Source: an uncultured Candidatus Saccharibacteria bacterium (GTDB lineage Bacteria; Patescibacteriota; 4484-211; JAGQKX01). Taken from it: a DNA stretch of 64,000 nucleotides. The position numbers and the translations under genes are program-made. The notes under the pieces were generated by a model. That model did not search any database. It had not been told where the DNA came from and was given only the letters and a program-made list of their open reading frames with translations. This document shows positions 1 through 40,218 of the stretch, one piece after another (position 1 is the stretch's first letter; each line of letters opens with the position of its first letter). Where the stretch lies: assembly GCA_964392315.1 (NCBI GenBank), contig CAYMOT010000002.1, positions 139,637 through 203,636 of the forward strand. Direction: 5' to 3'.

Positions 1-1
1 A

Positions 2-964
2 GGAAAACGTTATTCATTGCACGAAGGTATCGTCCAAGTTCCAGGTATTGCAGTTAACAATAATGCTGACATTCCTCGCTATCGTGCGGGGAATCTCAAG
101 CTTGTGTTTGGTGTCGTGTTTTCGCTGGACAAAGAGTCAGTAGATGAGCTTAACGCGCTGCAGCAAACGGAATACGATTTTTCAAAAATGAACGGACTTA
201 AATATGGATTGAGCGGAGCCGTTGAACAACTTGCGTACTATCATGATGTTTTGCATACATATGCAGATGATTTGCAATTAGTTCGTTCTCGCGCAGACTA
301 TGAAAATCTGGCCGGCAAGATAGGAATGCTTCTGCACTTAGAAGGGATAGATTATATTTCAGATATTTCCTTACTTGAATCGTTTTATAAAATGGGAGTG
401 CGAAGTGTCGCAATGACGTGGAGAAATAAAAATATTTTTGCTTCGGGAAATAATGTGGAAGGTGGTTTGACCGATGTAGGAAGAGAATTGATAGCAAAGA
501 CACGAGAACTCGATATGGTTTTTGATCTGGCACACGCTAATCCACAGACGTTTTGGGATGCAATGGAAGCTATTGATTTTCCTTTCATGGTCTCGCATAC
601 ACTCGTCAATGCGATTAAAGAAAACTCACGCAATCTCACAGACGATCAGATAAAGGCAGTGGCTCAGCGAGGTGGGGTCATCGGTATTGCGACAATCCCT
701 GATTATATGACTGGCGATTCAATGGATGATTATGTTGACCAGTTTGACTATATCTTGAAATTGGTCGGAGAGGATCATGTTGCGTTTGGTACTGACTTTG
801 ACGGGTTGGTCGATCCGACTGATCGTTTTGTGCAGGGATTTGAAGACGCGTCAATGTATCAAAATGTGTTACAGGCTTTTGACAAACGAGGTTTCTCAGA
901 ATCCACTATTGAGAAGATCGCGTATAAAAACGCTGAGCGGTTAATCTTGTCAGCGCTTTCCTAG
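2..964 (+). CDS. Membrane dipeptidase (peptidase M19 family), 5'-partial. The frame is open to the window start.
   Basis: C-terminal motif GEDHVAFGTDFDG matches the M19 'G.DHVG.GSDFDG' signature; VSHTLVNAIKENSRNLTDDQIKA..GGVIGI matches the M19 core. The N-terminal HxD motif is absent, so the gene starts upstream of the window. Confidence 0.7.
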   Translation, partial: GKRYSLHEGIVQVPGIAVNNNADIPRYRAGNLKLVFGVVFSLDKESVDELNALQQTEYDFSKMNGLKYGLSGAVEQLAYYHDVLHTYADDLQLVRSRADYENLAGKIGMLLHLEGIDYISDISLLESFYKMGVRSVAMTWRNKNIFASGNNVEGGLTDVGRELIAKTRELDMVFDLAHANPQTFWDAMEAIDFPFMVSHTLVNAIKENSRNLTDDQIKAVAQRGGVIGIATIPDYMTGDSMDDYVDQFDYILKLVGEDHVAFGTDFDGLVDPTDRFVQGFEDASMYQNVLQAFDKRGFSESTIEKIAYKNAERLILSALS

Positions 965-969
965 GTTCT

Positions 970-1881
970 ATGATTATAGATGTGCATACTCACGTTGGAT
1001 TTAATGCGAAGCGTGCATTTAACGGTATTCACCCGTTCTGCCAATCAGCTCAGGATTTGGTGCGGAAGATGGACCAGTTTGGCATTGATACAGCAGTCAC
1101 TTTTCCCTTCGAGCCTACTCTATATGATGACCCGAAAGATTACTACACCCTTATTCCAACAGGCTTAATGGAGTATCCGTATCAATATGAAAATCGGCTT
1201 CTCATAGATCAAGTGAAAAAATTTGGCAAGGATCGTTTGATTCCGTTTGCATGCGTCGATCCACTACGAGAGGTTGATAAACAAGCAGCACAATTACGAG
1301 CATGGGCAGAAGAGGGTTTAATTCGTGGTTTTAAAATTCACACAAAAAGTATGCAAGCAGATGGTAGAACTATGATTAATTCGCCATTTGCTGCTATTGC
1401 GGAAGAGTTCAAGCTGTCAATGCTGTTTCACACCTATATGCAAGAGGTTGCGCACCCGCTGCATGTGATGGAGTTTGTAAAAAACCATTCAAGCATCCAT
1501 GTGTGTATTGCGCATGGCGGTGGGTTTATTCAAGAGTTTTATGATGAGCTGGAGAAAGTAAACCCACAGAATTTTTTCATTGACCTCTCCCCTACTACAG
1601 CACTCCTAACTTTTATCCGGAAAGAATCAAAAGAACGGGGATTTACGGTGTTAGATCTGCCGTATGAAAACCCACAAGAAGTTGTCCAGCAGATGGTAAA
1701 GAACTATGGGGAATATATTGTGTTTGGGACTGATGAGCCGTTCACCACCTACATTAATGATTTAGAAGGTGGGTCGATCATATCGGATATGGGAAAAGAG
1801 TTAGAGATATTTAGATCGCTGTCTACAGAAGATTTTGAAAAAGTAACTGACAGTAACCCGAGACGGTTTTTGCATCTTTAA
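970..1881 (+). CDS. Amidohydrolase-family metal-dependent hydrolase (TIM barrel)
   Basis: N-terminal IIDVHTHVGFN (the HxH metal-binding start typical of amidohydrolase 2); 303 aa; lies 5 nt after the dipeptidase stop, so likely in an operon with it. Confidence 0.55.
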   Translation: MIIDVHTHVGFNAKRAFNGIHPFCQSAQDLVRKMDQFGIDTAVTFPFEPTLYDDPKDYYTLIPTGLMEYPYQYENRLLIDQVKKFGKDRLIPFACVDPLREVDKQAAQLRAWAEEGLIRGFKIHTKSMQADGRTMINSPFAAIAEEFKLSMLFHTYMQEVAHPLHVMEFVKNHSSIHVCIAHGGGFIQEFYDELEKVNPQNFFIDLSPTTALLTFIRKESKERGFTVLDLPYENPQEVVQQMVKNYGEYIVFGTDEPFTTYINDLEGGSIISDMGKELEIFRSLSTEDFEKVTDSNPRRFLHL

Positions 1882-1936
1882 GTTCAGGAAGATGGAGAGA
1901 AACAGGAGCCGGTTCGGCCGGCCCCTGTTTGGGTTA

Positions 1937-3484
1937 CTACTTGCGCCAATTGGCGCGTTTTTTCATCCAGTTGACGATGCCTTCAAGCTCCGAAGGCTCT
2001 TTTTCGATGGCGATTGGATGGAGTCTCCACCCGCCGAGAACCATATCGAGTTGCGAGCTGACAAACCCTCGCAGGAAACACTGTCCAGCAGGGCTGGACA
2101 GGAGCGTAGCAGCATCTGTCTCGAGGGCTGCCTGCTTCTCTCGAAGCGTGGCGCGTTCAGGGTCTACTTCCGATCGTGCTCCTGCGACCGCTTGCTGAAC
2201 TGCTTCGCGGGTTGGGGCTTTCTTTAGTGCACTGAGCAGGCGAGGATTTAGTTGTTGCACTTCTTTCTCAGCCCACCGACGCAGTAGGTCTTCGTCTTCT
2301 GGCGCCTCCAAGTCGACTTGCTCGCGAATCGCTTTTGCCCGGTGACTTTGCTCTTCAGCGAGCTTGTTCCACGCCTCGTACATTTCAAGCAATCGGTTGA
2401 CAGTAGGAGCGGCCCAGTCTGGCGTCCAAAAGTACTTGAGATGATTAGACGGATGAAGGACGTACGTCACATCCTTCGGAAGCCCGAGTGGATCTGCAAG
2501 CAGGTCCCACAGCTGTTCGATTTCGGCACGACGCTCAGCGGATTCGTCATCATCGAGCAGGTACGTCACCATCGAGGTCCCGCTGATGTGATGGACCAAT
2601 TCGCCGCCTGACCGAGCGAGCTGTGCCATCACCGGCAGCACGACATAAGCCGTTGTGTCAAGAATTGCTCCACTCATACGAAATAAGTCGGGTTTCTCAC
2701 CCGGCTTACTAAGAATCTCCGCAATGTACTGCATGAGCTGGAGCGCGATTTTCGACAGTAGTTCTGTCGGTATCTGCGGTCCTCCGTGGTAGCGCGTCCG
2801 GATCGGGCCAACGTCTCGTAAGGGCCGGCGTACACCTTGTTCCACCCACTCGTAAAAGTGGCGAGGCAGATGTTGGGCGATCAGTGCAAGTGCCTCCGGG
2901 AGTTTATCCCATGACAGCAGAAACTCACTCGCACTTATCGGATTAGCGTGCGGGAAGGCATAGCGTAGCATACTGTAGTGATACTGCGCAGGCGTCTGCG
3001 CATGCACCGCAAGCAGCCCTGGTGGAACGATTCTTTCAAGCTGGCAAGCCACTTCCCATTGCATGCCTCCCTTTGAGGCAAGTCCGACGATGGGGTTGGG
3101 CAATACCGAACCCATCATACCGCTCCAAACACCGAGCAATTCTTCCCACTGCTGTTGCAAGCGTGCAGTGAGTAGAAAACCGGGTTGGAACGTGTAGGGT
3201 GGCTTAGCCCAGATTGCCGCAGGACCGATAACCTGCCCATCGTGGCTGACGATAAGGCTCGCGCCGTCATAGGTCAACGTGTCGACAGGGTATGCACCGT
3301 CGCCAGCGGGGGTGAACTCGTGCTGAATGAAATCCAGCCCGTGGCCACCTAACGCTGCAAGAACGGCTAGCCGCTGGCTGTTTTGTGTGCCAATATGAGA
3401 TGAGGTCCCGATTGGGACACCACCATCCAAAGCTTCTCGTAGTCGGTTGAGGGGATCATTGCCTCTTACTATTGTGAAAGCCAT
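1937..3484 (-). CDS. Hypothetical 515-aa protein, GC-rich; paralog of the 6808-8241 gene (unknown family, HHISGTSM motif)
   Basis: Longest ORF in a visibly GC-rich segment. GGAGG Shine-Dalgarno 7 nt upstream of the ATG at 3484. Ala/Arg/Leu/Pro/Trp-rich composition unlike neighbouring proteins. N-terminus MAFTIVRGNDPLNRLREAL aligns with MPINFVNGSQITLRESLEF of the 6808 gene; shared ..YAFPH.. and ..SGTSM.. blocks. Confidence 0.7.
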   Translation of the reverse strand: MAFTIVRGNDPLNRLREALDGGVPIGTSSHIGTQNSQRLAVLAALGGHGLDFIQHEFTPAGDGAYPVDTLTYDGASLIVSHDGQVIGPAAIWAKPPYTFQPGFLLTARLQQQWEELLGVWSGMMGSVLPNPIVGLASKGGMQWEVACQLERIVPPGLLAVHAQTPAQYHYSMLRYAFPHANPISASEFLLSWDKLPEALALIAQHLPRHFYEWVEQGVRRPLRDVGPIRTRYHGGPQIPTELLSKIALQLMQYIAEILSKPGEKPDLFRMSGAILDTTAYVVLPVMAQLARSGGELVHHISGTSMVTYLLDDDESAERRAEIEQLWDLLADPLGLPKDVTYVLHPSNHLKYFWTPDWAAPTVNRLLEMYEAWNKLAEEQSHRAKAIREQVDLEAPEDEDLLRRWAEKEVQQLNPRLLSALKKAPTREAVQQAVAGARSEVDPERATLREKQAALETDAATLLSSPAGQCFLRGFVSSQLDMVLGGWRLHPIAIEKEPSELEGIVNWMKKRANWRK

Positions 3485-3802
3485 CGTAACCTCCGTTTAC
3501 AGAAATTTGAAGGGGCGTGCTTCGAATACATCCGTGTCAGGGGATGACACAAGAAACAATAAACCGCGGAAGCAGCACGGTCGTGTTCCTTATCGGTTTT
3601 CGTGACGATGCACGTCGGATCCTGCGGGGAAACGCATTGATTCCTCAATCGTTGGCGTTTAATCCGATAGAGAAGAGATAGTGTTGGGTACTATCATTTG
3701 GAGAGATATGTGCAGGTGGTGGGGATTCTAAGCGAACTTAGGAGGAGGAGAGGGGAAAAAGAGAGGAAGGTACAAAGGGGAAAGGAGTTAATAAGCGTTC
3801 AT

Positions 3803-3838
3803 TTACATATTTGTACTATTTGCATATTTGCTTATTTT
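3803..3838 (+). promoter_or_regulatory. Copy of the TTGTAC-TATTTG promoter-like motif (-35 TTGTAC, 16-nt spacer, -10 TATTTT) with no plus-strand gene downstream
   Basis: ATTTGTACTATTTGCATATTTGCTTATTTT. It lies between two minus-strand genes, so it is either an antisense/sRNA promoter or a protein-binding site used in either orientation. Confidence 0.3.
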
Positions 3839-3904
3839 CTCCTCCCCCACTTATACCGATTCCTCGTAAGTTGTTAATGTTCCTGACAAAGAGGCAGTGG
3901 ATTT

Positions 3905-6016
3905 TTAGATGAGCGTTTGCTCAAGATATGCATTGCCGGTTGATCCGTTGAAGTAAAGCGTGTAGAGCAGCGGGAATCCTAAAAAGCTCAAAAAACGATT
4001 ATGTTTCCCTTGTTGTGGCCTATAAAATTCTTCGAGTACATTAACAACAGCAGTTTTTTCGTTATTGCTCTGTTGCATGATTGCATCCAGGTAAGGTGTT
4101 TCATTGATTGATTGCTGTAATCTCGAGAATGTCATTGGTGTTTCTTGAATTAACTCTTCGACAAGTGCATCGCGTTTGGCAGGCGATAATTCATGCTGAT
4201 ATACCTCAACCATCAGTTCGTGTAAATTGGTGCTATCCGAATTTATGCCTTCGAGACGATGCACTGGGTTACGCTCTAGATACATTGATTGCAGTAGCGA
4301 TGGATAGCGTTTATACAGAGTGAGCGCAATGTCAAATAAAATGCATCCACTCACAAACTCGCCATTATAATCCTCTATCAACTCAATTACCTTTTGTCCG
4401 TTATCGTAGGTTAAGTAAATATTATTTCCTTTTTCCAGAACAGAATATGCTTCTGAACCTGAATGATGTGTCAGAACATATTTCAAGATATCGTGAGAAA
4501 GTGCTTTTACTACAGGGCTTGATTCAAGTGTCAACTCGTCAAGTGGGTACCCAAGATCCTCTAACATTTTGAAATACGTGTCGTAATTGATACGGTTGAT
4601 CACATGGTATTCATCAATCATTGCAGTACGTTCGATGCGGAGCGTAGGATTTAGCTTTGTAATAACATCGATTACATAATTTGCGATGAGTACTCCTGCA
4701 CGTTGGGATAAGCCTTCGTTTCTGTCTGCATGCACGTGTGCGGTCTCGATGTTCATGGCGGTATGACTCAACGCCAATTGTTTCACTACTTCACTTTCCT
4801 CAAGTCCTGTTTGTGGAAGTTTTGTATTCCAATCGACCGGGAAATATTCTTTTATAGTACCGGTGCGCATAACAACGCTTCCGGACCGGATTTTTTGGGT
4901 GGCAAACCACTCCTGTAGGTTGTTCGCCGGTAGTATTTTGCCGGTAGATCCTTTTTTGTTAAGCATCTCTTCAAACTCATTCGTGCTTTGAAAGGAAGTA
5001 GTAATGTCCGTTGGAATCAACAATACGATATCTTTCTGCCCTATTTGTAGCTGTGTAGATTGGAAAGGCGTTGCAGAATGACCGCCCAGTGAATAGTCAT
5101 TGTGCTCAGGAGAAATGACATGGGTAAGTTTTTTGGTAAAAAAATCTTCTGCGCTTTTGGGAGAAAGTTGCACTATACTTGCATTTCCAATGAGCACGGT
5201 CTTGACATATCGTATGCCGTCTTTTACATATTCTTGTGCGCCGATGAATCCTATACCTTCTGCAATTTTGCGAAGATATGCATAATAATCGAGTAGCAAA
5301 TTAGATACCTCAAATGGGTATTGTGTCAAAAAACGCTCGTACACGTCTGCCAATTCTTTGATCTCAGGTCGGGATTCTTGTGAATCTCCATTATTCGTGA
5401 ATACGCAGGCAACGATATTATCGGTTTTGTTTTTGTATACTGCTATGTAATTAGCGTTTATTTCACGCCTGCCTTCAGTATTACTTTCAGAGTGGACAGG
5501 TAAGTATTCAGTAGTATAGCCTCTATCGACGCCGCGCTCGTTAATTGCCATAAGAAATCTGTGAAAGTCTTTGCACTGCCGATATGTCGTTTCCGCATCT
5601 AAGATGGCATCCTCATCGTTTTGTTCTTTTAGAACTGCATCCAATCCCATGATTCTGGAAAAATGGCCAAATTCATCCCGGATCTCATGCTTTTGTGCGG
5701 TTTCTTTATCAGTAAGACAAAGCTCGTTAAAGGGTGTACCAAATTCCAATAGCGCAGAGATTTCGCTTTTGATCTCTTCGGTATAGGGCTGATTTAGTTC
5801 TAGCTGTGAAAAGATAGTCTCTAACGTAACTGAAGCGCCATTTTTGGCACTTTCTGCGAGGATCATGAGTTCTGCTTTGGTTAGCTCATAAAATTGTTGT
5901 TGTTTATTAAGGGGTAAGGCATAAAAGATATCGACATCTAAGCCTTTAAAGTCGAGCACGAGCTGTGCTACCCCCTGAGGCAGGGTGTGAGTTTTGTTTG
6001 CTATTACATTTTCCAT
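3905..6016 (-). CDS. Hypothetical 703-aa protein (AT-rich; no recognisable domain)
   Basis: Long intact ORF with Lys/Asn/Ile/Glu-rich composition typical of the host. A perfect TATAAT lies ~23 nt upstream of the ATG. No SD. It sits 40 nt downstream of a minus-strand tRNA, so co-transcription is possible. Confidence 0.65.
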   Translation of the reverse strand: MENVIANKTHTLPQGVAQLVLDFKGLDVDIFYALPLNKQQQFYELTKAELMILAESAKNGASVTLETIFSQLELNQPYTEEIKSEISALLEFGTPFNELCLTDKETAQKHEIRDEFGHFSRIMGLDAVLKEQNDEDAILDAETTYRQCKDFHRFLMAINERGVDRGYTTEYLPVHSESNTEGRREINANYIAVYKNKTDNIVACVFTNNGDSQESRPEIKELADVYERFLTQYPFEVSNLLLDYYAYLRKIAEGIGFIGAQEYVKDGIRYVKTVLIGNASIVQLSPKSAEDFFTKKLTHVISPEHNDYSLGGHSATPFQSTQLQIGQKDIVLLIPTDITTSFQSTNEFEEMLNKKGSTGKILPANNLQEWFATQKIRSGSVVMRTGTIKEYFPVDWNTKLPQTGLEESEVVKQLALSHTAMNIETAHVHADRNEGLSQRAGVLIANYVIDVITKLNPTLRIERTAMIDEYHVINRINYDTYFKMLEDLGYPLDELTLESSPVVKALSHDILKYVLTHHSGSEAYSVLEKGNNIYLTYDNGQKVIELIEDYNGEFVSGCILFDIALTLYKRYPSLLQSMYLERNPVHRLEGINSDSTNLHELMVEVYQHELSPAKRDALVEELIQETPMTFSRLQQSINETPYLDAIMQQSNNEKTAVVNVLEEFYRPQQGKHNRFLSFLGFPLLYTLYFNGSTGNAYLEQTLI

Positions 6017-6056
6017 TTGCTTATTTGTTTGTTTGCATATTATAAATTTGTTGACT

Positions 6057-6133
6057 TGGCTCCCCGGGAAGGATTCGAACCTCCAACCAACTGCTAAGAA
6101 TACAGCCGCTCTGTCCTATTGAGCTACCAGGGA
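6057..6133 (-). tRNA. tRNA, anticodon read as TCT (Arg); atypical anticodon loop (AUUCUUA, U at position 37)
   Basis: Cloverleaf folded by hand. Acceptor TCCCTGG/CCGGGGA, D stem GCTC/GAGC, T arm GGAGG-TTCGAAT-CCTTC, encoded CCA. The anticodon stem GCTGT/GCAGT needs two G-U pairs. Confidence 0.6.
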
Positions 6134-6142
6134 TATAAATAA

Positions 6143-6190
6143 ACCTCCGGTGAGGGAGGTTCTGGTTCTTTTTTTATTTTTTTAATTTAA
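6143..6190. terminator. Intrinsic terminator hairpin ACCTCC-GGTGAG-GGAGGT followed by a T-run (bidirectional context)
   Basis: Perfect 6-bp stem plus TTCTGGTTCTTTTTTTATTTTTT on the plus strand; A-rich on the other side. Confidence 0.55.
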
Positions 6191-6526
6191 TTTTAGCGAG
6201 AACCCCCTATACCGTCTTTGTGATCCAGAGGACCATAAAGAAAAAAGTAATGAGACCAATAAGCATATGCTTGCTGGCCTGGGGGGTACGATAATTTGTT
6301 GTTGCTAAAATTTGGGTCATACGTCGGCTTTCTCTTATAACAGAAATTTGGCAAATCTGTCAACAGGTTTTTTGACAGAGTTAGAATACTTGTGGTATAT
6401 ACGTGTTTCATGGAAACGTCCTTATCGAGTATACAACCAAAGCGTTGGCACCAATATTATGGTTACCGGTTTACCGCGGGAGGTCTTTTCATGTTCTAAA
6501 TCCATATACAAATAAATAAACGAAGT

Positions 6527-6556
6527 ATGTTGCCTCCCGAACGGGAGGTTTTTTTG
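6527..6556 (+). terminator. Intrinsic terminator CCTCCC-GAAC-GGGAGG + TTTTTTT
   Basis: GC hairpin immediately followed by 7 T; 12 nt after the stop of the small ORF 6312-6515. Confidence 0.55.
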
Positions 6557-6637
6557 TATATGGGCACATTAACAACTAAAGTATAAAGACGGGTCACGTG
6601 TAAATTATCCGGTACAAATATTTCTTTTTGCATGTTT

Positions 6638-6681
6638 TCATTTGCTTAATTGTACTATTTGCATTATTTGCTTATTAATTT
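6638..6681 (+). promoter_or_regulatory. Sigma70-like promoter carrying the recurrent TTGTAC-TATTTG motif (-35 TTGTAC, 17-nt spacer, -10 TATTAA)
   Basis: TTGTACtatttgcattatttgctTATTAA lies ~125 nt upstream of the SD-supported start at 6808. The same motif recurs in >=10 intergenic regions. Confidence 0.5.
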
Positions 6682-6807
6682 TTGCCTGTCCCCTCTTTGT
6701 AACCCCTCTATCCTCGTTTTTATAAAGCCACTTTCCTCTTGTGGCAAAACCGCCCGGTTTTACAAATCCTCGCTTGTTTGGGAGCACACGTAAAAAGGAG
6801 TAGATCA

Positions 6808-8241
6808 ATGCCAATCAATTTTGTAAATGGTTCTCAGATTACACTGAGAGAAAGTTTGGAGTTTAACGGCCGCGGCTCTCGAACGCCGCATCCCGGTTGG
6901 GAGAATACGATGACCACGATTCTTGCCCAACTTGGGGTACCTATTGAATTGTGTTGGGAAGTGCGTGCAGATCTGAAAGGGTATCGCGTGACACATCTTG
7001 GCGGTCATCGCATATCGCAGGACGACGCGAAGTGTGGTCCGTGGGCGCAGTTTGATGTGGTGAAGTGGGCAACGGTCAGGGCCACCTTACCTGGCAGTGT
7101 TCAATCGGTCGTTTCAACCTGCTGTACGCCGTTTCAAGCACACATGGCACTAGCAAAAGCAGCGTTTCCGCACATACAAACATCGGCTGATCTGTACCTT
7201 CGTCACGGCGAATTGGTGCAAAAAGCGCTAGATGTGCTTGCTCATAGTAGGTTTCGTGAGCATTTTGCGAAATATGTAGACGGCCAAGGGTATCTGCATC
7301 CAATCTACCAGGCACATGGTAATACCGTGTATTACCAGGGAAACCAAAAGGTGCACGCCCCACACCTGGAAGGCGGGTATATGAGACTCCTTGAGTTTGT
7401 GAAGGCGTCACAGAAGCACGGCGCCCAGGTTGCCTATCCCGCTTGGGGAGTGCTTCCTGATGCGCGGATTCTATGTCTACTGGATATGGTGGTGTATGCA
7501 CTGAGTGGGAATATTGACCACGTGTATGCGTGGTCGGGCACGTCGATGATGCAATACATCCTCAAAGAAGCTGATTCACAGCGGTGGCGAGAGATTGTGT
7601 CAGGGATGTATGACTTGGTGCGGCAACGTGCTTTGCCGGAGTTACCACGAGTATTAGATTTCACGCTAATACCTACGTTGGGTTTGGGTGATCTGGCTGT
7701 GACAGATGCAAGCATGGCGCAAGCAGTTAATACCCAACTGTGTCAGTTAAATGTTGCGGGAGTACGTGAGGAGCGGACAGACAAAGTTGGTTTGCAGCAA
7801 ATGGCGCGTGATGATGCGTATGCATTCTTGGCGCACATTGCTTTGTCCCTGGAGCCAAACGCGTGCACTGAGATTGCTCAGATGCTTGATGACGGCAATT
7901 GGCAAGGTGCCGGCGGCAAAGCTTCGGCATTGATATCTCTGCGCAGCAAAAAGCAGCACGTATGTGATCGGCATGTGGTTGAGGCTGAGTTAGGAGAACT
8001 GCTGCGAGATAACACCGGAAGATTTGTCCTTGCCAATCAACCGGCAGTAGATGCGCTGGCGTATGCAAACGGTACGCGATTGCACCTGTTGGTGGGTGTT
8101 TTGGATATTCCGGCAGGTAAGTTTGATTCGTATCGGGCGCGATTGGCAAACATCGCGTCGAGAGGGCAACGTAAAAATACTTCTCAAGAAGATGGTCCTC
8201 TCTTGCCCTATTTCAATAGAGCTGGGTGGATGCTAGAGTAA
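6808..8241 (+). CDS. Hypothetical 477-aa protein, GC-rich; paralog of the 1937-3484 gene
   Basis: AAAGGAG SD 8 nt upstream of the ATG at 6808 (the ORF track start at 6739 is probably too early). N-terminus and the internal AFPH / AWSGTSM blocks align with the 515-aa protein. GC-rich. Confidence 0.7.
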   Translation: MPINFVNGSQITLRESLEFNGRGSRTPHPGWENTMTTILAQLGVPIELCWEVRADLKGYRVTHLGGHRISQDDAKCGPWAQFDVVKWATVRATLPGSVQSVVSTCCTPFQAHMALAKAAFPHIQTSADLYLRHGELVQKALDVLAHSRFREHFAKYVDGQGYLHPIYQAHGNTVYYQGNQKVHAPHLEGGYMRLLEFVKASQKHGAQVAYPAWGVLPDARILCLLDMVVYALSGNIDHVYAWSGTSMMQYILKEADSQRWREIVSGMYDLVRQRALPELPRVLDFTLIPTLGLGDLAVTDASMAQAVNTQLCQLNVAGVREERTDKVGLQQMARDDAYAFLAHIALSLEPNACTEIAQMLDDGNWQGAGGKASALISLRSKKQHVCDRHVVEAELGELLRDNTGRFVLANQPAVDALAYANGTRLHLLVGVLDIPAGKFDSYRARLANIASRGQRKNTSQEDGPLLPYFNRAGWMLE

Positions 8242-8250
8242 ATAGGAGGT

Positions 8251-8293
8251 ATAAAAAAAAGCCGGCCGCCCACAAGGGGCGTCCGGCTTTTTG
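8251..8293. terminator. Bidirectional intrinsic terminator (A-run, AGCCGGCCGCCC-ACAA-GGGGCGTCCGGCT hairpin, T-run)
   Basis: Sits between convergent genes (6808-8241 + and 8365-8754 -). GC-rich stem flanked by A8 and T5. Confidence 0.6.
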
Positions 8294-8364
8294 CGATTAG
8301 AGCGACATCATGTACGCAAGTCGCTCCATCTGGTATTCCAATTCAGCCGCACACTCACGACATG

Positions 8365-8754
8365 TCAGACCTCCTCGTTGAAAACATAACCGAGCCATTG
8401 CAGCACGGGGCGGACATACTTGCCGCCGCAGTCGAGCCAGATAACCGAACAGCTCGCGACATCGAAAATGCCAAGAGCCACTTCCTGCTTCTGGACGACT
8501 GTTCCTTCCTGGTAGCCCATTTGCTTCAGGGCCTCGATCACGGTCGGGGTGACCGACACGCGATTAATCAAGATGGCGCCATATCCGCGTCGCTGGTATT
8601 CTTCGGTACCTTGGAAGTACCTTACCCAGTGTTCGATAGCGATTTTGGCGCTTTCCACATCCGCGCCGAACGAATATTGCCGTCCTTCTACGAAGGTGAA
8701 GCCGGACGTTAACCTCAGCCAGTACTCGCCGAGCGTCATGGTGGGGATTGTCAT
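8365..8754 (-). CDS. Hypothetical 129-aa protein, possibly a GNAT-fold acetyltransferase
   Basis: GGAGGTG SD 5 nt upstream of the ATG at 8754. The ATGA overlap with the upstream 181-aa gene means translational coupling. QRRGYGAIL resembles GNAT motif A (Q/R-x-x-G-x-G/A). Confidence 0.45.
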   Translation of the reverse strand: MTIPTMTLGEYWLRLTSGFTFVEGRQYSFGADVESAKIAIEHWVRYFQGTEEYQRRGYGAILINRVSVTPTVIEALKQMGYQEGTVVQKQEVALGIFDVASCSVIWLDCGGKYVRPVLQWLGYVFNEEV

Positions 8755-9296
8755 TTCCCACCTCCGACGACCGCACCGCAGCGGATGCAATAATCACGCA
8801 ATACGGCTTTATCGTTGACGAGATCTCCGAGTCGACGCGTACCGTGGTTGTGTTCACACTTCGCGTATGTCCAATAGGGTTGATCGAGAATGTTCCAACC
8901 CACGCGGGCGTACATGAAGGTCTTATAGTGAAGTACGCAAGGCGCCCACGGTATCGTTCCTTCCGGGCATACCGTAAAGGTTGCATAGTGCTCGTGGGAT
9001 ACCCGAGTCACTCTTGATATCCCTTCACTGTGCGCACGAAGTACAGCTGACGTCCACCCTGTGGGGACGTAGGTGGGGATGCGCGAAGACATGCCGAACC
9101 AATATACGCTCTTATCACCCTCAAAAATAGCAACAAGAGTTGTTGCATCGACCGAAAGCGCAATGTAATACGACATGACCTGCTCTTTTTCGATGCCGAG
9201 AATTTCTGCAACCTCGGACAGTTTGTTCCAACCCCATTTACCGAACTTGAAGGGTTGGATGTTCGGAAACCGATAAACCGCTGGTGCTACTATCAT
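8751..9296 (-). CDS. Hypothetical 181-aa protein with a C-terminal Cys/His cluster (CEHNH..CIRCG)
   Basis: AAGGAAGG SD upstream of the ATG at 9296 (ORF track start 9347 is probably too early). GC-rich. Its stop overlaps the start of the 129-aa gene. Confidence 0.45.
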   Translation of the reverse strand: MIVAPAVYRFPNIQPFKFGKWGWNKLSEVAEILGIEKEQVMSYYIALSVDATTLVAIFEGDKSVYWFGMSSRIPTYVPTGWTSAVLRAHSEGISRVTRVSHEHYATFTVCPEGTIPWAPCVLHYKTFMYARVGWNILDQPYWTYAKCEHNHGTRRLGDLVNDKAVLRDYCIRCGAVVGGGK

Positions 9297-9767
9297 ACTT
9301 TCCTTCCTTTTCAAGGATGCCTTAGGAAAGATTCGTTTAACGCCCATCGGCGTTCTGATCTGAATTGTGCATACCCTAGATGCAACGGGCCAAATCAGCC
9401 CGTGGTGTCTCCGTGAGACGAGTGAAGCTGAACATTGGGTTACTTCATCTAAGAAGTTCTAAACTGGGTGTTTAGAGCAATGCAGCAAGTTATATGGCTT
9501 GTTTTCTTTTGGTGGGAACCTAAAAAAACAAAGGTGTGAGGGGTATTGTGACATATATGCAGGGAGGCATATGTTTGTCTGGGAAGCGTCAGGTAGGGAG
9601 CCTGATTTTGCAAACGTGTGCAGTGCTTCTAATTGGTCGTAAAGACCGTAAAGCGGGGAGTCTTGGGAGAGGAGAGGAAGATAGGAAAGTACAAATAAGC
9701 AGATAAGCAAATACTATAGGACCAGCTTGGTTAAGTAAGGATCTGATTGATAAGGGTATTGAAACAT

Positions 9768-9796
9768 GAAAAAAGCCACCTTTTCCAAGGGTGGCT
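9768..9796 (-). terminator. Intrinsic terminator for the 458-aa gene (GCCACC-CTTGGAAAA-GGTGGC + T-run on the minus strand)
   Basis: Hairpin 40 nt after the stop at 9836, followed on the minus strand by TTTTTT. Confidence 0.6.
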
Positions 9797-9835
9797 CTGC
9801 GAATCGCCCGGCTGGGCCGAGCGACTCATAAATGG

Positions 9836-11212
9836 TTACTTCTTGCTTGTCAATGCGTCAAGCCAATTGGCCAAACGCTCCATCCATCGTGGAATGGGGA
9901 ATCTCATTCCCACCAACTCATCGAATTGAGAGGCAGTAACGGCTTTGGCCAACGCACGACGGATCGCGTTTCGGAAACGCAGTGCACGGATGTGAGATCT
10001 GCTCCAAGGTTGTATCTCAAATCGGGGTCTTTCACCGGGATGCCAGATTACTCCGACAGCAACACCGTCGTCTTTGTTTCCAAAGAGATCGAAGCCGTAC
10101 TGTGTACCGGCGTATTCCCCCATCCAGCGCTCGAAGCGCTCTCCTGTTCTGTTCTCCTCGTTAGGCAGGTTCTCCAGGATCGCCTCCACGATGTGCCGGC
10201 AAAGGTGTAGCGTTTCCACTGGACCATAGGGTTCAATTCCCTTCCAATCTCGTCGTGAGAATGAACGGAACACCTGAACAGTCCTTTTTGGATACTTACC
10301 CTGATTATTGGAGATTACTGTATTGCAAAATCCAACATATTCGAGAGCAGGGTTTTCCAAAAAAAGTCTGTCCACTAGCCAATACAGAATTCTCGGCAGT
10401 TCTTGTGTACCTCCAGATGGCGCGAGGAAGACGTGGGTAACAGGAAGATGCTCCATGGAATCTTGAATCGACGTGGGAGTGAAATGGTTCTTGAAGAAGA
10501 AAGTCTCAAGTGTACCCGTAATCCCTAATTCAGTCGATAAACCTGTATCCAGGTCAACACCATGATACCGGTCATCATCATCAAGGAGCTGCACGATCAA
10601 CCCAAATGGACCCGTTACCGGTCCATAATGTTGCCAATAACTGCCATTGGCTGAAGTCACCTTCCAGAAGACACGATTGATTGGCTCGACGCGTGTCTCC
10701 AGGTACGGGAATAGTTGTCGAACCAATTCACCTTGATCATGTTCGTAGGTAACCGGGATCATCCCTTTAGGCAGCCTAGGACGAGCGTATCGGTCTCCAA
10801 CCTTTAGGGCTTGGATACTTCCACCCTTTGGATCTCGGGCCATCATCCAATCGCCACCCCAGTCATAGAGTTCTTCGAGTCGACCTGTTTCTAACAGGTG
10901 GTTGTAGATATCAAAGAACTCTTGTGAAGTCATTGGCCAGCCCGTGGATGCGACTTGGACATTCCAGAAGTGTCCGATGAACGGACTTGTCCGAACGAGC
11001 TCATCGATTTGGGTGGGTATTGCTTTTAAGGCGTCCAATTTGGACATTGGAGCTGATCTCAGAAACCTCCCATCATAGGCTGCAAACGCCTCAAATTGCT
11101 CTTTCCACCAAATGTGAGAAATACCCACCGATATCCACGGTATCCTCAGATTGGTGGGCTTACCCGGTCTTACTTCGATGTACGGCTTACGTGAAACCAT
11201 CCCACTCGTCAT
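9836..11212 (-). CDS. Hypothetical 458-aa protein (GC-rich, Trp-rich, LLDDDDRYHGVDLDTGL acidic block)
   Basis: Long intact ORF in the GC-rich block. ATGA start/stop overlap with the upstream 98-aa gene. Dedicated terminator downstream. No domain recognised. Confidence 0.6.
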   Translation of the reverse strand: MTSGMVSRKPYIEVRPGKPTNLRIPWISVGISHIWWKEQFEAFAAYDGRFLRSAPMSKLDALKAIPTQIDELVRTSPFIGHFWNVQVASTGWPMTSQEFFDIYNHLLETGRLEELYDWGGDWMMARDPKGGSIQALKVGDRYARPRLPKGMIPVTYEHDQGELVRQLFPYLETRVEPINRVFWKVTSANGSYWQHYGPVTGPFGLIVQLLDDDDRYHGVDLDTGLSTELGITGTLETFFFKNHFTPTSIQDSMEHLPVTHVFLAPSGGTQELPRILYWLVDRLFLENPALEYVGFCNTVISNNQGKYPKRTVQVFRSFSRRDWKGIEPYGPVETLHLCRHIVEAILENLPNEENRTGERFERWMGEYAGTQYGFDLFGNKDDGVAVGVIWHPGERPRFEIQPWSRSHIRALRFRNAIRRALAKAVTASQFDELVGMRFPIPRWMERLANWLDALTSKK

Positions 11213-11505
11213 GACGCCACCTCCGCATGTCCGTTGCCAAGACGCAGTTGTTCGCGGACGATTTCCAGAACGTCATCGCGGACTGATGCCGTATAGGCAT
11301 CAACCCGGAAATAGAGCCCTGAGATATCGATCGTAACAAAGTTGCCATCAAGGCCTATGCGTACCGGAACAGAGGGCACTTTTAGGGGAACCGTGATCTC
11401 AGCATCCAGATCAAGCAGAGCGAGAACTTCCTCGCGACCGAACAAAACGGCCCACTTCGAATGGCCGTTTATTCCAACGGAAATAAAACGTTTGTTTGTA
11501 TTCAC
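11209..11505 (-). CDS. Hypothetical 98-aa protein (GTG start), first gene of a coupled pair with the 458-aa gene
   Basis: AAGGAG SD 6 nt upstream of the GTG at 11505. Its stop overlaps the ATG of the 458-aa gene. Confidence 0.45.
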   Translation of the reverse strand: MNTNKRFISVGINGHSKWAVLFGREEVLALLDLDAEITVPLKVPSVPVRIGLDGNFVTIDISGLYFRVDAYTASVRDDVLEIVREQLRLGNGHAEVAS

Positions 11506-12365
11506 AACATTCTCCTTACATCATCTTCTAAAGGAAAACACGTTGGCGTTCCCAGCTTCCCGGGCTGAGGGTTTTTGAACACAGTTTGATGCAACTATGC
11601 GTCGCATCGAGGACAGGCTAAAAGCGGATGCATGTAAAACCAAAATCACGCATCACACTATCCTCTCGTCTTAACCCAGTCGTCAGTAAAACGACCTGGA
11701 TTTTGAAGACTTCTCGTGTTGTCGTCACGAGCATTAAATGGACCGTTTCCATCGGGTGATGGAAATCCTACTAGGAGATTCGGCCATTCCTCACGGCCAC
11801 GGACTCGCCACGTATGACGAGCCGTTCGCAGTTGATCCAAAACTGCTTTTGGAGCTGACTGACACATCAGCTTTTTGTATGAGGGGAATTGCAGGCGCAT
11901 GCACGGTAGCCCATGCATGGCAAATATGCGGGGACAGAACTTGAATGGTGAATTCAAGGTGTTTTCTTCAATACCAGTCGGGAGACAGGTAAGGAAAAAA
12001 CGAGGGTTTTTGGTAGGAGTTTTGTCAACCTAACTGACAGGGTGGTCAGTATAACGGTTGTATTGAATCATTTGATTGGGAGTCAAATGTGTCTTTGATA
12101 GACGTATTCAATTAGAGGAATTGAAAAAGGGTGGGGGTCGAAAGAGAGAGGAAAGGTATACTTTGTGTTTTTGCCAAGAATCAACTTGATCCATGGGTTA
12201 TTAGTTAATTAACAAAGTGCACGTTTCCTCCATCTTAAGTACCTTGATCCTTTCTAGTCCTACTTTCCCTATTCCCTCATACATAATATATATAGATTGT
12301 TAATGAACGGAAAATATGGTGCGAATTATACGCGTAAATTACATATATGTAAATACTATGGGACC

Positions 12366-12930
12366 AATATGTCATTTAAAAAATGTTATAGAAAGATACT
12401 GTAGTGTATGCAGCAAAAAGCCCTCCGCATCTCCCCCATAGTTTGGAGTTGCGAAGGGCAGCTATTAGGCCAATATAGTACATGGCCTTTTTAAGTCCCG
12501 AAGGACTCGAACTATTTTCTTGGCTGGCTCTACACCGTAGCCCCAAGAGCGCCGTTCGAAGGCTGAGGAGTCCGCTACCCTTACACATGTAAGGACGGCT
12601 GAAGATCTGTTACCAGACCTTTTGTTTTGGTACGCACAAGTCGTACCCTCCGCTACTCACCTGCCCTCTTTCGATCTCGCAGGTTGCCGTATGACTTGAG
12701 TAGCCGCATAGGCTGTATTGGTGAGTATTATGATAATTCTTTTGGTTCAGGAAGTGCCGAGGGGCAGGCGATTCCAGGCACCTACCCCTCAAACATCCGT
12801 CCTCCGGTGATTCACGCCTCGCTTCGTGAACATTTATGCCTTCATGTACAACACATCTAGAGTAATAAGCTAATAATCAAATAATCCAATAAACAAATAT
12901 ACAAATAAATTGAAAGGCCTATAAACGAAT
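12366..12930 (+). ncRNA. Candidate large structured non-coding RNA of unknown class
   Basis: ORF-free 1.3 kb gap. GC-rich island (12400-12860) inside AT-rich DNA. Nested perfect helices (GCTACTC..CCTGC..GCAGG..GAGTAGC) and a pseudoknot-like GTGCC/GAGGGG..GGCAC..CCCCTC arrangement. An upstream AAATACTATGGGACC promoter-like motif and a downstream CCTCCC hairpin terminator (12932-12968) bracket it. tRNA-Leu follows. Confidence 0.3.
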
Positions 12931-12931
12931 G

Positions 12932-12968
12932 AACCTCCCTTTTGTGGGAGGTTGTGTATTTGTTTCTT
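12932..12968 (+). terminator. Intrinsic terminator CCTCCC-TTTTGT-GGGAGG + T-rich tail
   Basis: Perfect 6-bp GC stem followed by TTGTGTATTTGTTTCTTT. Same hairpin family as 6143 and 6527. Confidence 0.5.
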
Positions 12969-13236
12969 TGATTTATAAAACAAACCTCCCTATGAATAAT
13001 TGCCAATAATGACAAAAAGCATAGTATCCTGGTGCTTGGTCCAGGATGTGGAGATCTGAGAGTTGGTTGCGAAACAGCTGTACATACTAATGTGGACTAT
13101 AACGTTATTTAATATGTCCGTCAATGGGAGGTTATAATATATAAATACACCAATAATCTAATAGTCGAGTAGCCTAAATAGTAAAAATAATAATAATCAT
13201 AATCATATAAATAATAAAGATAGGCACCTATCAATC

Positions 13237-13280
13237 GATTTGCTTATTTGTACTATTTGTAGTATTTGTTTATTACTCAG
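13237..13280 (+). promoter_or_regulatory. Sigma70-like promoter for tRNA-Leu (-35 TTGTAC, 17-nt spacer, -10 TATTAC, 5-6 nt to the tRNA 5' end)
   Basis: TTGCTTATTTGTACtatttgtagtatttgttTATTACtcagG, where the final G is tRNA position 1. Confidence 0.55.
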
Positions 13281-13365
13281 GCCGGTGTGGTGAAATTGGC
13301 AGACACGCTTGGTTTAGGACCAAGTGCCGAAAGGCTTGGGGGTTCAAGTCCCTCCACCGGCACCA
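13281..13365 (+). tRNA. tRNA-Leu (anticodon TAG), class II with a long variable arm
   Basis: Hand-folded. Acceptor GCCGGTG/CACCGGC, 3-bp D stem, anticodon arm CTTGG-TTTAGGA-CCAAG, 13-nt variable arm, T arm GGGGG-TTCAAGT-CCCTC, A73, encoded CCA. Confidence 0.85.
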
Positions 13366-13432
13366 CAAAAAATAATTTCAAATAATCAAATATACAAATA
13401 AGCAAATAGAAAGAGGGTAATTTTCGAATACG

Positions 13433-14587
13433 TTACTTCTGATACACCGAGACGTTGTCGATGAAGGCGGTGTTTGCTTTTCCATCACCATCCAGATAAA
13501 ACTGGATGCGGGTGCTCTTAACCAAATTGCTTGAAGGTGTGTAAGAGAACGCCTTGGTTCCTACATAATTCTTCTCAACGGTGCCCACGATTTGACCGGA
13601 GATCCAGTTGCCTTGCTCGTCATATTCGTCCATATACATACCCATACTCGCTCCTTTTATACCTATGGTGTTAGCGAAGAACGCAATCTGGTGTGTCGAC
13701 GTTGCTGCGAAAGCAAGTGCTTCGCTACGTACATATGCGTTTCGCTTCTTTGCCGTTGTTGTAATTTTCAAAGCATTCTTGGGCTCAGGATACTGTCCGT
13801 TATTTTTGGTATCAATCACCGATCCCGCCATGTCAGGCCATTTTTGAGCTCCTTGATTAAAGGTATCACTCCACTGTGGCGTTAGCTTAGTGGTATCTAA
13901 TACGTGTTGGACAGGCAAAACTGAGGTTCCTTTATTTACTGCATAAGAAACGTGCTCTTCTAGGTCACTAATTCGGGTCACGTATTCGTTGTTAGCCTGA
14001 AAATCTGTTTGTATGTCATGATAGACGAGGATAAGCCATGCATTTGTCGCATGAGCCTCATCAATCCAAGCTTGTACTTGTTGGACACTGACTCCGCGTT
14101 CAATTGATTTTACTTGCAGTACGTAAAACGCATACGGCCATGCATTTAAATTATCTCTATCCCAAAAACCTCGAGCCGCGTTGTAATGTCGATTAACATG
14201 AACCAAAGATCGCATATCATATGCGCCATACGGAAAAGCAAATGTGTTGATCGTAAGGCCTTTGCCTTCCAAAAAGGTTTTGGACCCGACAATTTCCTGC
14301 CGTACCGCATCGTCAGATAACGTAGGAATCTCGCGGTGTGTTAACGAGTGGCTGCCGATCTCCCAACCGGCCGCTTGTAATGTTTTAATTTGATTCCAGG
14401 TCATGTAACCTTGATCACCGGTGTGAGATTTTGTGACATATGCGGTGCCTTGGACGTTATGCGCTTGCATGATCGGAAAAGCTTCATCATATGTAGAAGC
14501 GTATCCGTCATCAAACGTAAACGAAACATACCCGCGCATCGCAGTTTGTGCAACTGCTGTGCTCGGTACAAACGTACTGAGTAGCAT
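13433..14587 (-). CDS. Polysaccharide deacetylase (NodB homology domain) with a C-terminal beta-rich extension
   Basis: FTFDDGY and HSLTH motifs (NodB motifs 1 and 2); N-terminal signal-like segment; 384 aa. Confidence 0.65.
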   Translation of the reverse strand: MLLSTFVPSTAVAQTAMRGYVSFTFDDGYASTYDEAFPIMQAHNVQGTAYVTKSHTGDQGYMTWNQIKTLQAAGWEIGSHSLTHREIPTLSDDAVRQEIVGSKTFLEGKGLTINTFAFPYGAYDMRSLVHVNRHYNAARGFWDRDNLNAWPYAFYVLQVKSIERGVSVQQVQAWIDEAHATNAWLILVYHDIQTDFQANNEYVTRISDLEEHVSYAVNKGTSVLPVQHVLDTTKLTPQWSDTFNQGAQKWPDMAGSVIDTKNNGQYPEPKNALKITTTAKKRNAYVRSEALAFAATSTHQIAFFANTIGIKGASMGMYMDEYDEQGNWISGQIVGTVEKNYVGTKAFSYTPSSNLVKSTRIQFYLDGDGKANTAFIDNVSVYQK

Positions 14588-16809: not shown

Positions 16810-16877
16810 GGCCGTGTATTATAGGCAAAAACCACTTATTTGTCAATACTATAGGTATATATTCGGGGTTGAGATTT

Positions 16878-20426: not shown

Positions 20427-20508
20427 TAGTTAAGTTCAAATTTGCTCGATTTTTTTACAAGCTCAAGCCATTTGTTAATTGGTTTATTTGTACTATTTGT
20501 TTATTAAA

Positions 20509-40141: not shown

Positions 40142-40218
40142 GCCCCAGTAGCTCAGTAGGATAGAGCAACTCCCTTCTAAGGAGTAGGTCAGAGGTTCGA
40201 CTCCTCTCTGGGGTACCA
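40142..40218 (+). tRNA. tRNA-Arg (anticodon TCT), canonical
   Basis: Anticodon arm ACTCC-CTTCTAA-GGAGT; D stem GCTC/GAGC; T arm AGAGG-TTCGACT-CCTCT; A73; CCA encoded. Confidence 0.85.

What the first reader, a model, noticed from the sequence alone, without database searches (positions are those of the whole stretch)
9836..11505. Coupled 98-aa + 458-aa operon of unknown function, with SD-GTG start, ATGA overlap and its own terminator
The 98-aa ORF starts at a GTG 6 nt after AAGGAG. Its stop overlaps the ATG of the 458-aa gene. The latter is followed 40 nt later by a clean intrinsic terminator (GCCACC..GGTGGC + T6). It is therefore a discrete two-gene transcription unit in the foreign GC-rich block. 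The 458-aa protein is Trp-rich, with an acidic LLDDDDRYHGVDLDTGL stretch and a C-terminal FPIPRW. I could not place it in a family (YcaO-like and hydrolase-like were considered and are unsupported).
Basis: seen in the sequence. Interest (0 to 1): 0.55.

Follow-up and report, generated by a model that had tools for sequence, protein, structure and literature searches.

The report
Orphan two-gene operon, CPR island
This is a real, tightly coupled two-gene operon in a strain-variable island of a candidate-phyla-radiation bacterium; neither protein resembles anything among about 15 billion known sequences, so the anatomy is clear but the function is only a guess.

Summary
The start is AAGGAG-6 nt-GTG, and the 98-aa ORF overlaps the 458-aa ORF by ATGA. 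The 458-aa gene has its own GGAGGTG Shine-Dalgarno (SD) site. Two hairpins follow the stop; the second is GCCACC/GGTGGC plus U6, 40 nt downstream. Both ORFs score as coding only in their own frame. A 5-mer SD core occurs in only 5 of 45 genes in the window.

Neither protein has a homologue in any profile library, in PDB, or in two protein collections. The full HMMER scan covered 1.84 billion representatives. Single-sequence AlphaFold models were unusable.

The host is a Patescibacteria (CPR) bacterium. The operon lies in a 4.4-kb segment that a 93%-identical strain lacks. Its core, 9337-12459, is 99.94% identical to a copy at the same locus in a species whose flanks share only about 75-80%. 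That indicates recent exchange.

Transcription probably starts at a TTTACA-17-TATAAT promoter about 0.8 kb upstream and runs through a strongly structured leader (z about -10).

Function is unresolved. My best guess (about 0.3) is an accessory conflict module, toxin-antitoxin-like or defence-like. The RiPP and E1/E2 ideas have no support.

The parts
12325..12362 (-). Probable promoter of the operon. CCCATAGTAT box at 12362..12353, -35 TTTACA at 12353..12348, 17-nt spacer, -10 TATAAT at 12330..12325.
   Evidence: It matches 11 of 12 consensus positions. The same box-TTGACA-17-TATAAT layout precedes three other genes: the leaderless GT2 gene at 16855..16818, the L002 101-aa gene and the L014 leader. 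CCYATAGTAT occurs 3 times against 0.19 expected.
11506..12318 (-). About 0.8-kb non-coding, highly structured 5' leader with no convincing ORF. The predicted 5' end (12317..12309) pairs with the SD region of the 98-aa gene (11515..11507).
   Evidence: MFE is -273.5 kcal/mol and z is -10.5 and -9.8 in two runs. The opposite strand gives -3.4, and 10 coding controls of the same length give -2.2 to +1.3. Both halves are structured (z -5.6 and -6.9). The 9-bp helix from the 5' end to the SD has pair probability 0.98. No Rfam match at E<=10. The ORFs at 11658-11957(-) and 11738-11944(+) lack an SD and give ambiguous codon scores.
11512..11517 (-). Shine-Dalgarno AAGGAG of the 98-aa gene, 6 nt before the GTG.
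   Evidence: Read directly. SD cores are rare in this genome.
11209..11505 (-). 98-aa gene with a GTG start. The product is acidic (pI 5.2), predicted beta-rich with one C-terminal helix, and has no homologues.
11218..11224 (-). Shine-Dalgarno GGAGGTG of the 458-aa gene, inside the 3' end of the 98-aa gene, 5 nt before the ATG.
9836..11212 (-). 458-aa gene whose ATG overlaps the upstream TGA as ATGA. The product is soluble, has no transmembrane segment or signal peptide, has pI 6.9 and 3.5% Trp, and has no homologues.
9769..9827 (-). Tandem hairpins ending the operon. A 12-bp hairpin lies at 9827..9801, followed by the intrinsic terminator GCCACC/GGUGGC (9798..9772) with U6 at 9774..9769.
   Evidence: -34.9 kcal/mol, z -4.9.
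9337..12459 (.). Recently exchanged cassette: leader of the next operon, terminator, 458-aa gene, 98-aa gene, long leader and promoter. It is 99.94% identical to the copy in a second genomic background.
   Evidence: There are only 2 differences in 3123 nt against L002-L006, while the flanks fall to 45-75% amino-acid identity or are unrelated.
8363..12760 (.). Strain-variable segment holding the 129-aa and 181-aa genes and the cassette. A 93%-identical strain has 825 bp with other genes here instead.
   Evidence: L009 matches window 1..8362 and 12761..12961 only.

Best explanation
Shown. The pair is a genuine bicistronic operon. Translation starts from two strong SD sites and is coupled by an ATGA overlap. 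Transcription ends at a tandem-hairpin intrinsic terminator. It lies in a strain-variable island beside a conserved CPR-specific 477-aa gene in a Patescibacteria genome. It sits on a 3.1-kb segment that was recently exchanged between two species at the same locus. The exchange boundaries fall in short stretches of conserved non-coding DNA, which fits homologous recombination.

Inferred with fair support. Transcription starts at the promoter at 12353..12325. It passes through an 0.8-kb structured leader whose 5' end can mask the first SD. That suggests translation is held off until the leader is remodelled.

Inferred weakly (about 0.3). The products are cytoplasmic and made in fixed proportion. 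I propose they act as a two-protein accessory conflict module, with the small acidic 98-aa protein binding and restraining the large 458-aa effector. This is the logic of a toxin-antitoxin or abortive-infection-type defence pair. It would explain patchy strain distribution, recent horizontal spread and the absence of relatives.

The confidence given below refers to this functional reading. The anatomical part I hold at about 0.9.
For: Anatomy.

Coding signal. SD sites are rare in this genome and present at both starts.

Promoter family. Structured leader and masking of the SD.

Variable island: a close strain lacks 8363-12760, and other relatives carry different genes at this site.

Recent exchange: 2 synonymous differences in 3123 nt against flanks at 45-75% amino-acid identity.

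Orphan status of both proteins.

Protein properties: no transmembrane segment or signal peptide, small partner acidic.

From general knowledge, not tested here: a small upstream gene overlapping a large downstream gene is the layout of type II toxin-antitoxin pairs such as HipB(88 aa)/HipA(440 aa). Strain-variable hot spots are enriched in defence and addiction modules.
Against: No toxin, antitoxin or defence profile matches either protein (PADLOC, Pfam, NCBIfam).

No DNA-binding fold is recognisable in the 98-aa protein.

No recognisable defence gene lies anywhere in the island in either background.

The structure models are unusable (pLDDT 35 and 42).

CPR genomes are full of unexplained genes, so location alone is weak evidence.

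The other island operons, with unrelated genes, also have structured leaders. The leader is therefore a feature of this class of genes, not specific to this pair.
Confidence: 0.3

Rival explanations
1. A lineage-specific cellular function that is not a conflict system, for example something tied to the episymbiotic lifestyle or to metabolism or cell-envelope upkeep. It would simply be carried in a variable region of a poorly known phylum.
For: Most genes of this island class, including the conserved 477-aa family, have no known domains. The operon shares promoter type, SD use and structured leaders with those neighbours. This suggests one co-regulated gene class rather than an independent selfish module.
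Against: It is absent from a 93%-identical strain. It has no relatives even in other CPR genomes among 15 billion proteins. It was recently transferred between species. All three are unusual for a useful cellular function.
Confidence: 0.25
2. The cassette is a self-mobilising element, and the 458-aa protein (with the 98-aa helper) is a recombinase or transposase of an unrecognised kind acting on the long non-coding ends.
For: Identity drops sharply at both ends of a 3.1-kb unit found in two backgrounds. About 0.95 kb and 0.5 kb of non-coding DNA flank the two genes.
Against: Both copies sit at the same locus next to the 477-aa gene. The boundaries lie in DNA that is homologous between the backgrounds, at the end of the conserved 9350-9645 element and in an 85%-identical 40-nt stretch at 12460-12499, so ordinary homologous recombination is sufficient. 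No terminal inverted repeats or target duplications were found. There is one copy per contig. No transposase or recombinase profile matches.
Confidence: 0.08
3. An RNA-protein module: the 0.8-kb structured RNA is a functional partner, as guide, scaffold or antitoxin, of the two proteins rather than a mere leader.
For: Predicted structure is extreme and strand-specific (z about -10). The RNA and the two genes are transferred together as one unit. No known RNA family matches.
Against: Other island operons with unrelated genes also have long structured leaders (z -4 to -7), and their promoters and first transcribed bases are paralogous. All known copies are identical, so covariation cannot be tested. 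Compositional patchiness inflates z-scores of long windows.
Confidence: 0.1
4. One reading: a RiPP recognition element plus modifying enzyme, or an E2/E1-like conjugation pair.
For: Only the small-plus-large gene layout.
Against: No PqqD/RRE, YcaO, ThiF/E1 or UBC signal even at E<=1-10. No precursor-peptide candidate with an SD lies nearby. The 98-aa protein does not end in Gly-Gly. The low-confidence model predicts six strands and one helix, unlike the three-strand, three-helix RRE fold.
Confidence: 0.03
5. Non-functional or decaying ORFs, a remnant of foreign DNA that is not expressed to any purpose.
For: There are no homologues, and only two sequence variants exist, so purifying selection cannot be measured.
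Against: Both reading frames are intact and identical in the 10 gene-carrying contigs shown (of 12-14 on record), from at least four run-accession series. The codon signal is frame-specific, and Cys depletion gives a protein-like composition. Two optimal SD sites, an ATGA coupling and a terminator are all retained. Both substitutions are synonymous.
Confidence: 0.04

Closest known systems
Type II toxin-antitoxin pairs with a large toxin (HipB/HipA layout)
   Same: A small acidic upstream gene (98 aa) overlaps a large downstream gene (458 aa) for coupled translation. It is a compact unit with its own terminator, patchily distributed and horizontally transferred.
   Different: There is no sequence relationship to HipA, HipB or any other toxin or antitoxin family. 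No HTH, RHH or AbrB signal was found in the small protein. The long 0.8-kb leader is atypical. Toxicity is untested.
Two-gene anti-phage defence systems carried in genomic hot spots
   Same: It lies in a strain-variable slot beside a conserved anchor gene and near tRNA genes. The cargo differs between close strains. The cassette was recently exchanged between species.
   Different: No PADLOC model matches. No other recognisable defence gene is in the island. The host is an uncultured CPR bacterium whose phages and defences are largely unknown.
Long structured 5' leaders that mask a ribosome-binding site (riboswitch- or thermometer-like translational control)
   Same: The predicted 5' end pairs with the SD of the first gene with high probability. 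Folding is strong and strand-specific.
   Different: At about 810 nt it is several times longer than known riboswitches. It has no Rfam match, no ligand-binding motif, and no covariation data.
Listeria-Bacteroides repeat (Flg_new-type) domain
   Same: It is the only sub-threshold sequence match. Residues 346-392 resemble the repeat unit of a 1550-aa surface protein.
   Different: The E-value of 1.9e-5 sums seven near-identical repeats. Single-repeat identity is about 30% over 47 residues. Pfam reports no such domain even at E<=10 on the isolated fragment. I treat it as chance.

Membership tests
Type II toxin-antitoxin system | Small antitoxin gene immediately upstream of, and translationally coupled to, the toxin gene | tested here: met
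   ATGA overlap, with 98 aa upstream of 458 aa. This layout is common and not specific.
Type II toxin-antitoxin system | Antitoxin carries a recognisable DNA-binding fold (HTH, RHH, AbrB/SpoVT, Phd/YefM) | tested here: not met
   No Pfam, NCBIfam or PDB sequence match for the 98-aa protein. The structure model is too poor to judge the fold.
Type II toxin-antitoxin system | Toxin belongs to a known toxin family | tested here: not met
   No match in Pfam, NCBIfam, PADLOC, PHROGs or PDB.
Type II toxin-antitoxin system | Toxin arrests growth and the antitoxin neutralises it by binding | not testable with these tools
   This needs expression experiments.
Known anti-phage defence systems (PADLOC-DB 2.0) | Match to a system protein model | tested here: not met
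   0 families at E<=1 for both proteins.
RiPP cluster (RRE plus modifying enzyme) | PqqD-like recognition element, a YcaO or other tailoring-enzyme domain, and a nearby precursor peptide | tested here: not met
   No such domains. No SD-preceded small ORF lies nearby.
E1/E2-like conjugation pair | ThiF/E1 adenylation domain with a UBC-like or ubiquitin-like partner ending in Gly-Gly | tested here: not met
   No domain match. The 98-aa protein ends ...HAEVAS.
Insertion sequence / transposon | Transposase family match, terminal inverted repeats, target-site duplication, multiple copies | tested here: not met
   No transposase profile. No terminal repeats at 9337 or 12459. There is a single copy, at the same locus in both backgrounds.
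Phage or plasmid gene families | Similarity to phage, plasmid or viral-contig sequences | tested here: not met
   No PHROG. No tblastn or blastn match in phages or plasmids. Nothing in IMG/VR.
Rfam RNA families (for the leader) | Covariance-model match | tested here: not met
   Nothing relevant at E<=10 in 11450-12500 or 9290-9840.

The most novel reading that the evidence does not exclude
The 3.1-kb cassette is a self-contained RNA-protein system of a kind not yet described. It would consist of an about 0.8-kb highly structured RNA plus two proteins with no relatives among 15 billion sequences. It would move as one unit between CPR species and act in defence or in its own spread.
Probability: 0.1. 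Interest if true: 0.8.

Novelty: categorically new. Interest (0 to 1): 0.4.

Why it matters
If the pair is a working module, it defines two new protein families. It may also define a new conflict or RNA-linked system in the candidate phyla radiation, a very large and poorly understood part of bacterial diversity.

The label 'categorically new' means only that no relationship to any known family or system could be detected by sequence, profile, structure or RNA-model searches. It does not mean that a new mechanism has been shown. The gene layout itself is ordinary, and orphan genes are common in CPR genomes.

The more general point is the contrast seen around the operon. This genome holds a small class of GC-richer genes with strong SD sites and long structured leaders. 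They sit among host genes that lack SD sites, a quarter of which carry leaderless-type -10 boxes. That contrast could be used to find accessory or regulated genes in CPR genomes.

Tried and rejected
Searches on the 458-aa and 98-aa proteins:
- Pfam, NCBIfam, PHROGs and PADLOC on both proteins, and Pfam on five overlapping fragments of the 458-aa protein at E<=10: nothing.
- PDB sequence searches on the whole proteins and on halves: nothing.
- Word-indexed search of 5.8 billion clusters for both proteins: self only.
- Full HMMER against 1.84 billion representatives: self plus one repeat-inflated match, rejected.
- Pattern plus tblastn scans of GTDB genomes, JGI metagenomes and IMG/VR: nothing.
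- tblastn and blastn against phages and plasmids: nothing.
- tblastn of both proteins against all fetched loci: no paralogues. Self-comparison: no internal repeats.

Structure:
- AlphaFold2 without an alignment gave pLDDT 35 (458 aa) and 42 (98 aa).
- Foldseek of the poor 458-aa model against PDB gave best E 0.26 and TM below 0.15, which is meaningless.

Leads from memory that failed:
- A SUKH/SMI1-like reading of the motif DWGGDWMM was not backed by any profile and was dropped.
- Group II intron, IS200/605-TnpB, IS110 bridge-RNA, retron and DGR readings were considered. They were rejected for lack of RT, RuvC, zinc-finger or recombinase signals, of Rfam matches and of TR/VR repeats. The protein has only 2 Cys.

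Context:
- Neighbour and island genes from both backgrounds and three relatives: no informative domain.
- A profile of the 477-aa family against PDB: nothing.
- A 22-mer from the conserved leader in metagenome and viral contigs: no match.
- Sample accessions and topic terms in the literature: nothing useful.

Full report
**1. The observation**

The two ORFs lie on the minus strand: 98 aa at 11505..11209 and 458 aa at 11212..9836.
- AAGGAG at 11517..11512 sits 6 nt before the GTG. The TGA of the first gene overlaps the ATG of the second as ATGA.
- The second gene also has its own GGAGGTG, 5 nt before its ATG.
- After the TAA stop come two hairpins. The second is GCCACC/GGUGGC followed by six U, starting 40 nt after the stop. 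The 86-nt region folds at -34.9 kcal/mol (z -4.9).
- The quoted peptide motifs and the Trp richness (3.5%) are correct.

**2. Is it more than chance?**

- A 458-codon ORF never arises in shuffles, where the maximum was 213 aa. A 98-codon ORF often does, in 74% of shuffles. The small gene therefore needs other support.
- Both ORFs score best in their own frame out of six, under a codon model trained on host genes and under one trained on the GC-rich neighbours. Both show the coding pattern GC1>GC3>GC2.
- SD sites are rare here. Of 45 likely genes in the window, only five carry a 5-mer SD core: the 515-, 477-, 129-, 458- and 98-aa genes. Twelve of the others have a TATAAT-like box 3-13 nt before the start codon, which is the signature of leaderless mRNAs.
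- The two known variants of the cassette differ at two positions. Both are third-codon positions in the 458-aa gene, and the proteins are identical.

I conclude that both genes are real.

**3. Homology**

- Nothing matched in Pfam, NCBIfam, PHROGs, PADLOC or PDB sequences. This includes fragments searched at E<=10.
- The word-indexed search of 5.8 billion clusters returned only the proteins themselves.
- The exhaustive HMMER scan of 1.84 billion representatives returned the 458-aa protein itself plus one hit at E 1.9e-5, to a 1550-aa surface protein. That score sums seven near-identical copies of a Listeria-Bacteroides-type repeat, each about 30% identical over 47 residues. Pfam does not see the domain in the isolated fragment. 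I reject it.
- Scans of genome, metagenome, viral, phage and plasmid collections found nothing.
- With no alignment, AlphaFold gave pLDDT 35 and 42, and the fold search was meaningless.
- The 458-aa protein is soluble, without a transmembrane segment or signal peptide, has pI 6.9 and no internal repeats. The 98-aa protein is acidic, with pI 5.2.

**4. Host and locus**

- The neighbouring 477-aa gene (6808-8241) has homologues. Named ones come from a Candidatus Woesebacteria MAG and, partially, from a Saccharibacteria MAG, at 43-47% identity. The host is therefore a Patescibacteria (CPR) bacterium not represented at species level in GTDB.
- The rest of the window holds ordinary bacterial genes, such as a P-type ATPase, MurF, ABC transporters, a sortase and a histidine kinase.
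- In distant relatives the 477-aa gene sits in a conserved core neighbourhood with peptidase M19, HisRS and ribosomal-protein genes.
- In close relatives the DNA beyond its 3' end is variable:
  - A strain 93% identical over window 1..8362 has 825 bp with a 154-aa and a 121-aa gene in place of window 8363..12760, then resumes at 12761.
  - An 81% relative has 383-aa and 122-aa genes there.
  - A 69% relative has 132-aa and 128-aa genes.

**5. The cassette**

- The exact 458-aa protein is on record on 12 contigs, and the 10 gene-carrying contigs shown all encode it identically, in two backgrounds.
- In the second background (L002-L006) the genes on one side are the same family but diverged. The 129-aa protein is 75% identical, the 181/172-aa protein 45%, and a fragment of the 477-aa gene 76-87% at the nucleotide level. 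On the other side lie six unrelated orphan genes.
- Between 9337 and 12459 the two backgrounds differ at only 2 of 3123 positions. This is a very recent exchange between species.
- The right boundary coincides with the end of a non-coding element (9350-9645) that is conserved even in the 69% relative. The left boundary lies in a 40-nt stretch that is about 85% identical.
- No terminal repeats or target duplications were found, and both copies are at the same locus.
- Homologous recombination through conserved non-coding DNA is the simplest mechanism. Self-mobility is not needed, but it is not excluded.

**6. Transcription unit**

- The best promoter match in 8200-13500 is TTTACA-17-TATAAT at 12353..12325 on the minus strand, preceded by CCCATAGTAT.
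- The same box-TTGACA-17-TATAAT arrangement precedes the leaderless glycosyltransferase gene at 16855..16818, the 101-aa gene of L002 and the leader in L014. The three island promoters also share their first transcribed bases.
- This places the start near 12318, about 810 nt before the GTG. No convincing ORF lies in between.
- The 815-nt stretch is predicted to be exceptionally structured on the sense strand: z -10.5 and -9.8, against -3.4 for the opposite strand and -2.2 to +1.3 for 10 coding controls of the same length. In 200-nt windows z reaches -6.8.
- A 9-bp helix between the predicted 5' end and the SD region of the 98-aa gene has pair probability 0.98.
- No Rfam family matches.
- Other island operons also have structured leaders, with z of -4 to -7. 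I therefore read this as a regulatory trait of the gene class. All copies are identical, so covariation cannot be tested, and compositional patchiness may inflate the z-score of the full-length window.

**7. Function**

- Homology gives nothing, so only context and anatomy remain.
- The layout is a small acidic upstream partner, an overlapping large downstream gene and a compact unit. The pair is patchily present, was recently transferred and has no relatives. This fits an accessory conflict module, toxin-antitoxin-like or defence-like, better than the alternatives. I give it about 0.3, because every specific membership test failed and the island holds no recognisable defence gene.
- A lineage-specific cellular role gets about 0.25.
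- An RNA-protein module gets about 0.1, and a self-mobilising element about 0.08.
- The remaining 0.2 is left unassigned.

**8. Verdict**

The proteins are new families with no detectable link to any known system, but an orphan operon in a CPR genome is not surprising in itself. Interest is moderate (0.4). What raises it are the inter-species cassette exchange, the very large structured leader, and the clear split between SD-bearing island genes and SD-less host genes, a quarter of which carry leaderless-type -10 boxes.

Noticed in passing
window 9350-9645 (-); L014 5984-6303: A conserved non-coding element of about 300 nt lies upstream of the 181/129-aa genes. It is 75% identical to a relative whose core genes are only about 69% identical, and includes a perfect 28-mer. 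A two-sequence consensus fold shows 4 compensatory pairs, and z is -4.3. It has no Rfam match and no match in metagenome or viral scans. It is a candidate cis-regulatory RNA.
   Followed up: partly
whole window; L002, L012, L014, L015, L017: There are two gene classes. GC-richer genes (0.50-0.56) have strong SD sites: the 515-, 477-, 129-, 458- and 98-aa genes, plus most genes checked in the L002, L012 and L014 islands. The AT-richer host genes have no SD. Twelve of the 45 window genes, none of them SD-bearing, have a -10-like box 3-13 nt before the ATG, the leaderless type. The 477-aa family keeps AAAGGAGGTGTGAA-ATG in distant relatives, where even ribosomal-protein genes lack an SD.
   Followed up: partly
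window 12353-12362, 9711-9720, 16846-16855 (all -); L002 ~5410-5450; L014 ~6440-6480: A CCYATAGTAT box abuts the -35 hexamer of TTGACA-17-TATAAT promoters, 3 copies against 0.19 expected in the window. The copy before the 181-aa gene has a degenerate -10.
   Followed up: partly
window 9692-9713, 12864-12909, 13245-13269, 13378-13408, also ~3801-3836, 6640-6677, 20463-20506: Short arrays of an 8-nt periodic AT-rich unit (CAAATAAG and variants) recur in intergenic DNA of this genome and of related strains. Their role is unknown.
   Followed up: no
window 12461-13275 (-): The rest of the 1.8-kb gene-free stretch up to tRNA-Leu is also predicted to be strongly structured (z -8.8). It holds a bidirectional terminator-like hairpin at 12932-12953. 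A weak tmRNA-like match lies on the + strand at 12946-13156 (14 bits against a threshold of 47, E 0.0097), and ARAGORN does not confirm it.
   Followed up: partly
window 6808-8241 (+): The 477-aa protein belongs to a conserved CPR-specific family with many invariant residues (His, Cys, Asp, Trp) and no Pfam or PDB relative. It anchors the variable island in close relatives and sits next to peptidase M19 in distant ones.
   Followed up: partly
window 8297-8362: By coordinate mapping, this intergenic stretch corresponds to the last ~22 codons of the 154-aa gene of strain L009. Homologues of 135 and 132 aa occur in L002 and L014. This suggests the gene was deleted in the window's strain.
   Followed up: no
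window 1937-3484 (-): Another GC-rich (0.56), SD-bearing orphan gene of 515 aa with no domain. It lies on the far side of tRNA-Arg and is shared with the close strain L009.
   Followed up: no
window 6057-6133 (-) and 40142-40218 (+): There are two tRNA-Arg(TCT) genes in the window. One of them and tRNA-Leu(TAG) at 13281-13365 bracket the 477-aa gene and the variable island. No integrase or att-like repeat was found.
   Followed up: partly
window 56582-62614 (-): A very large ORF of 2010 aa. It was not examined.
   Followed up: no
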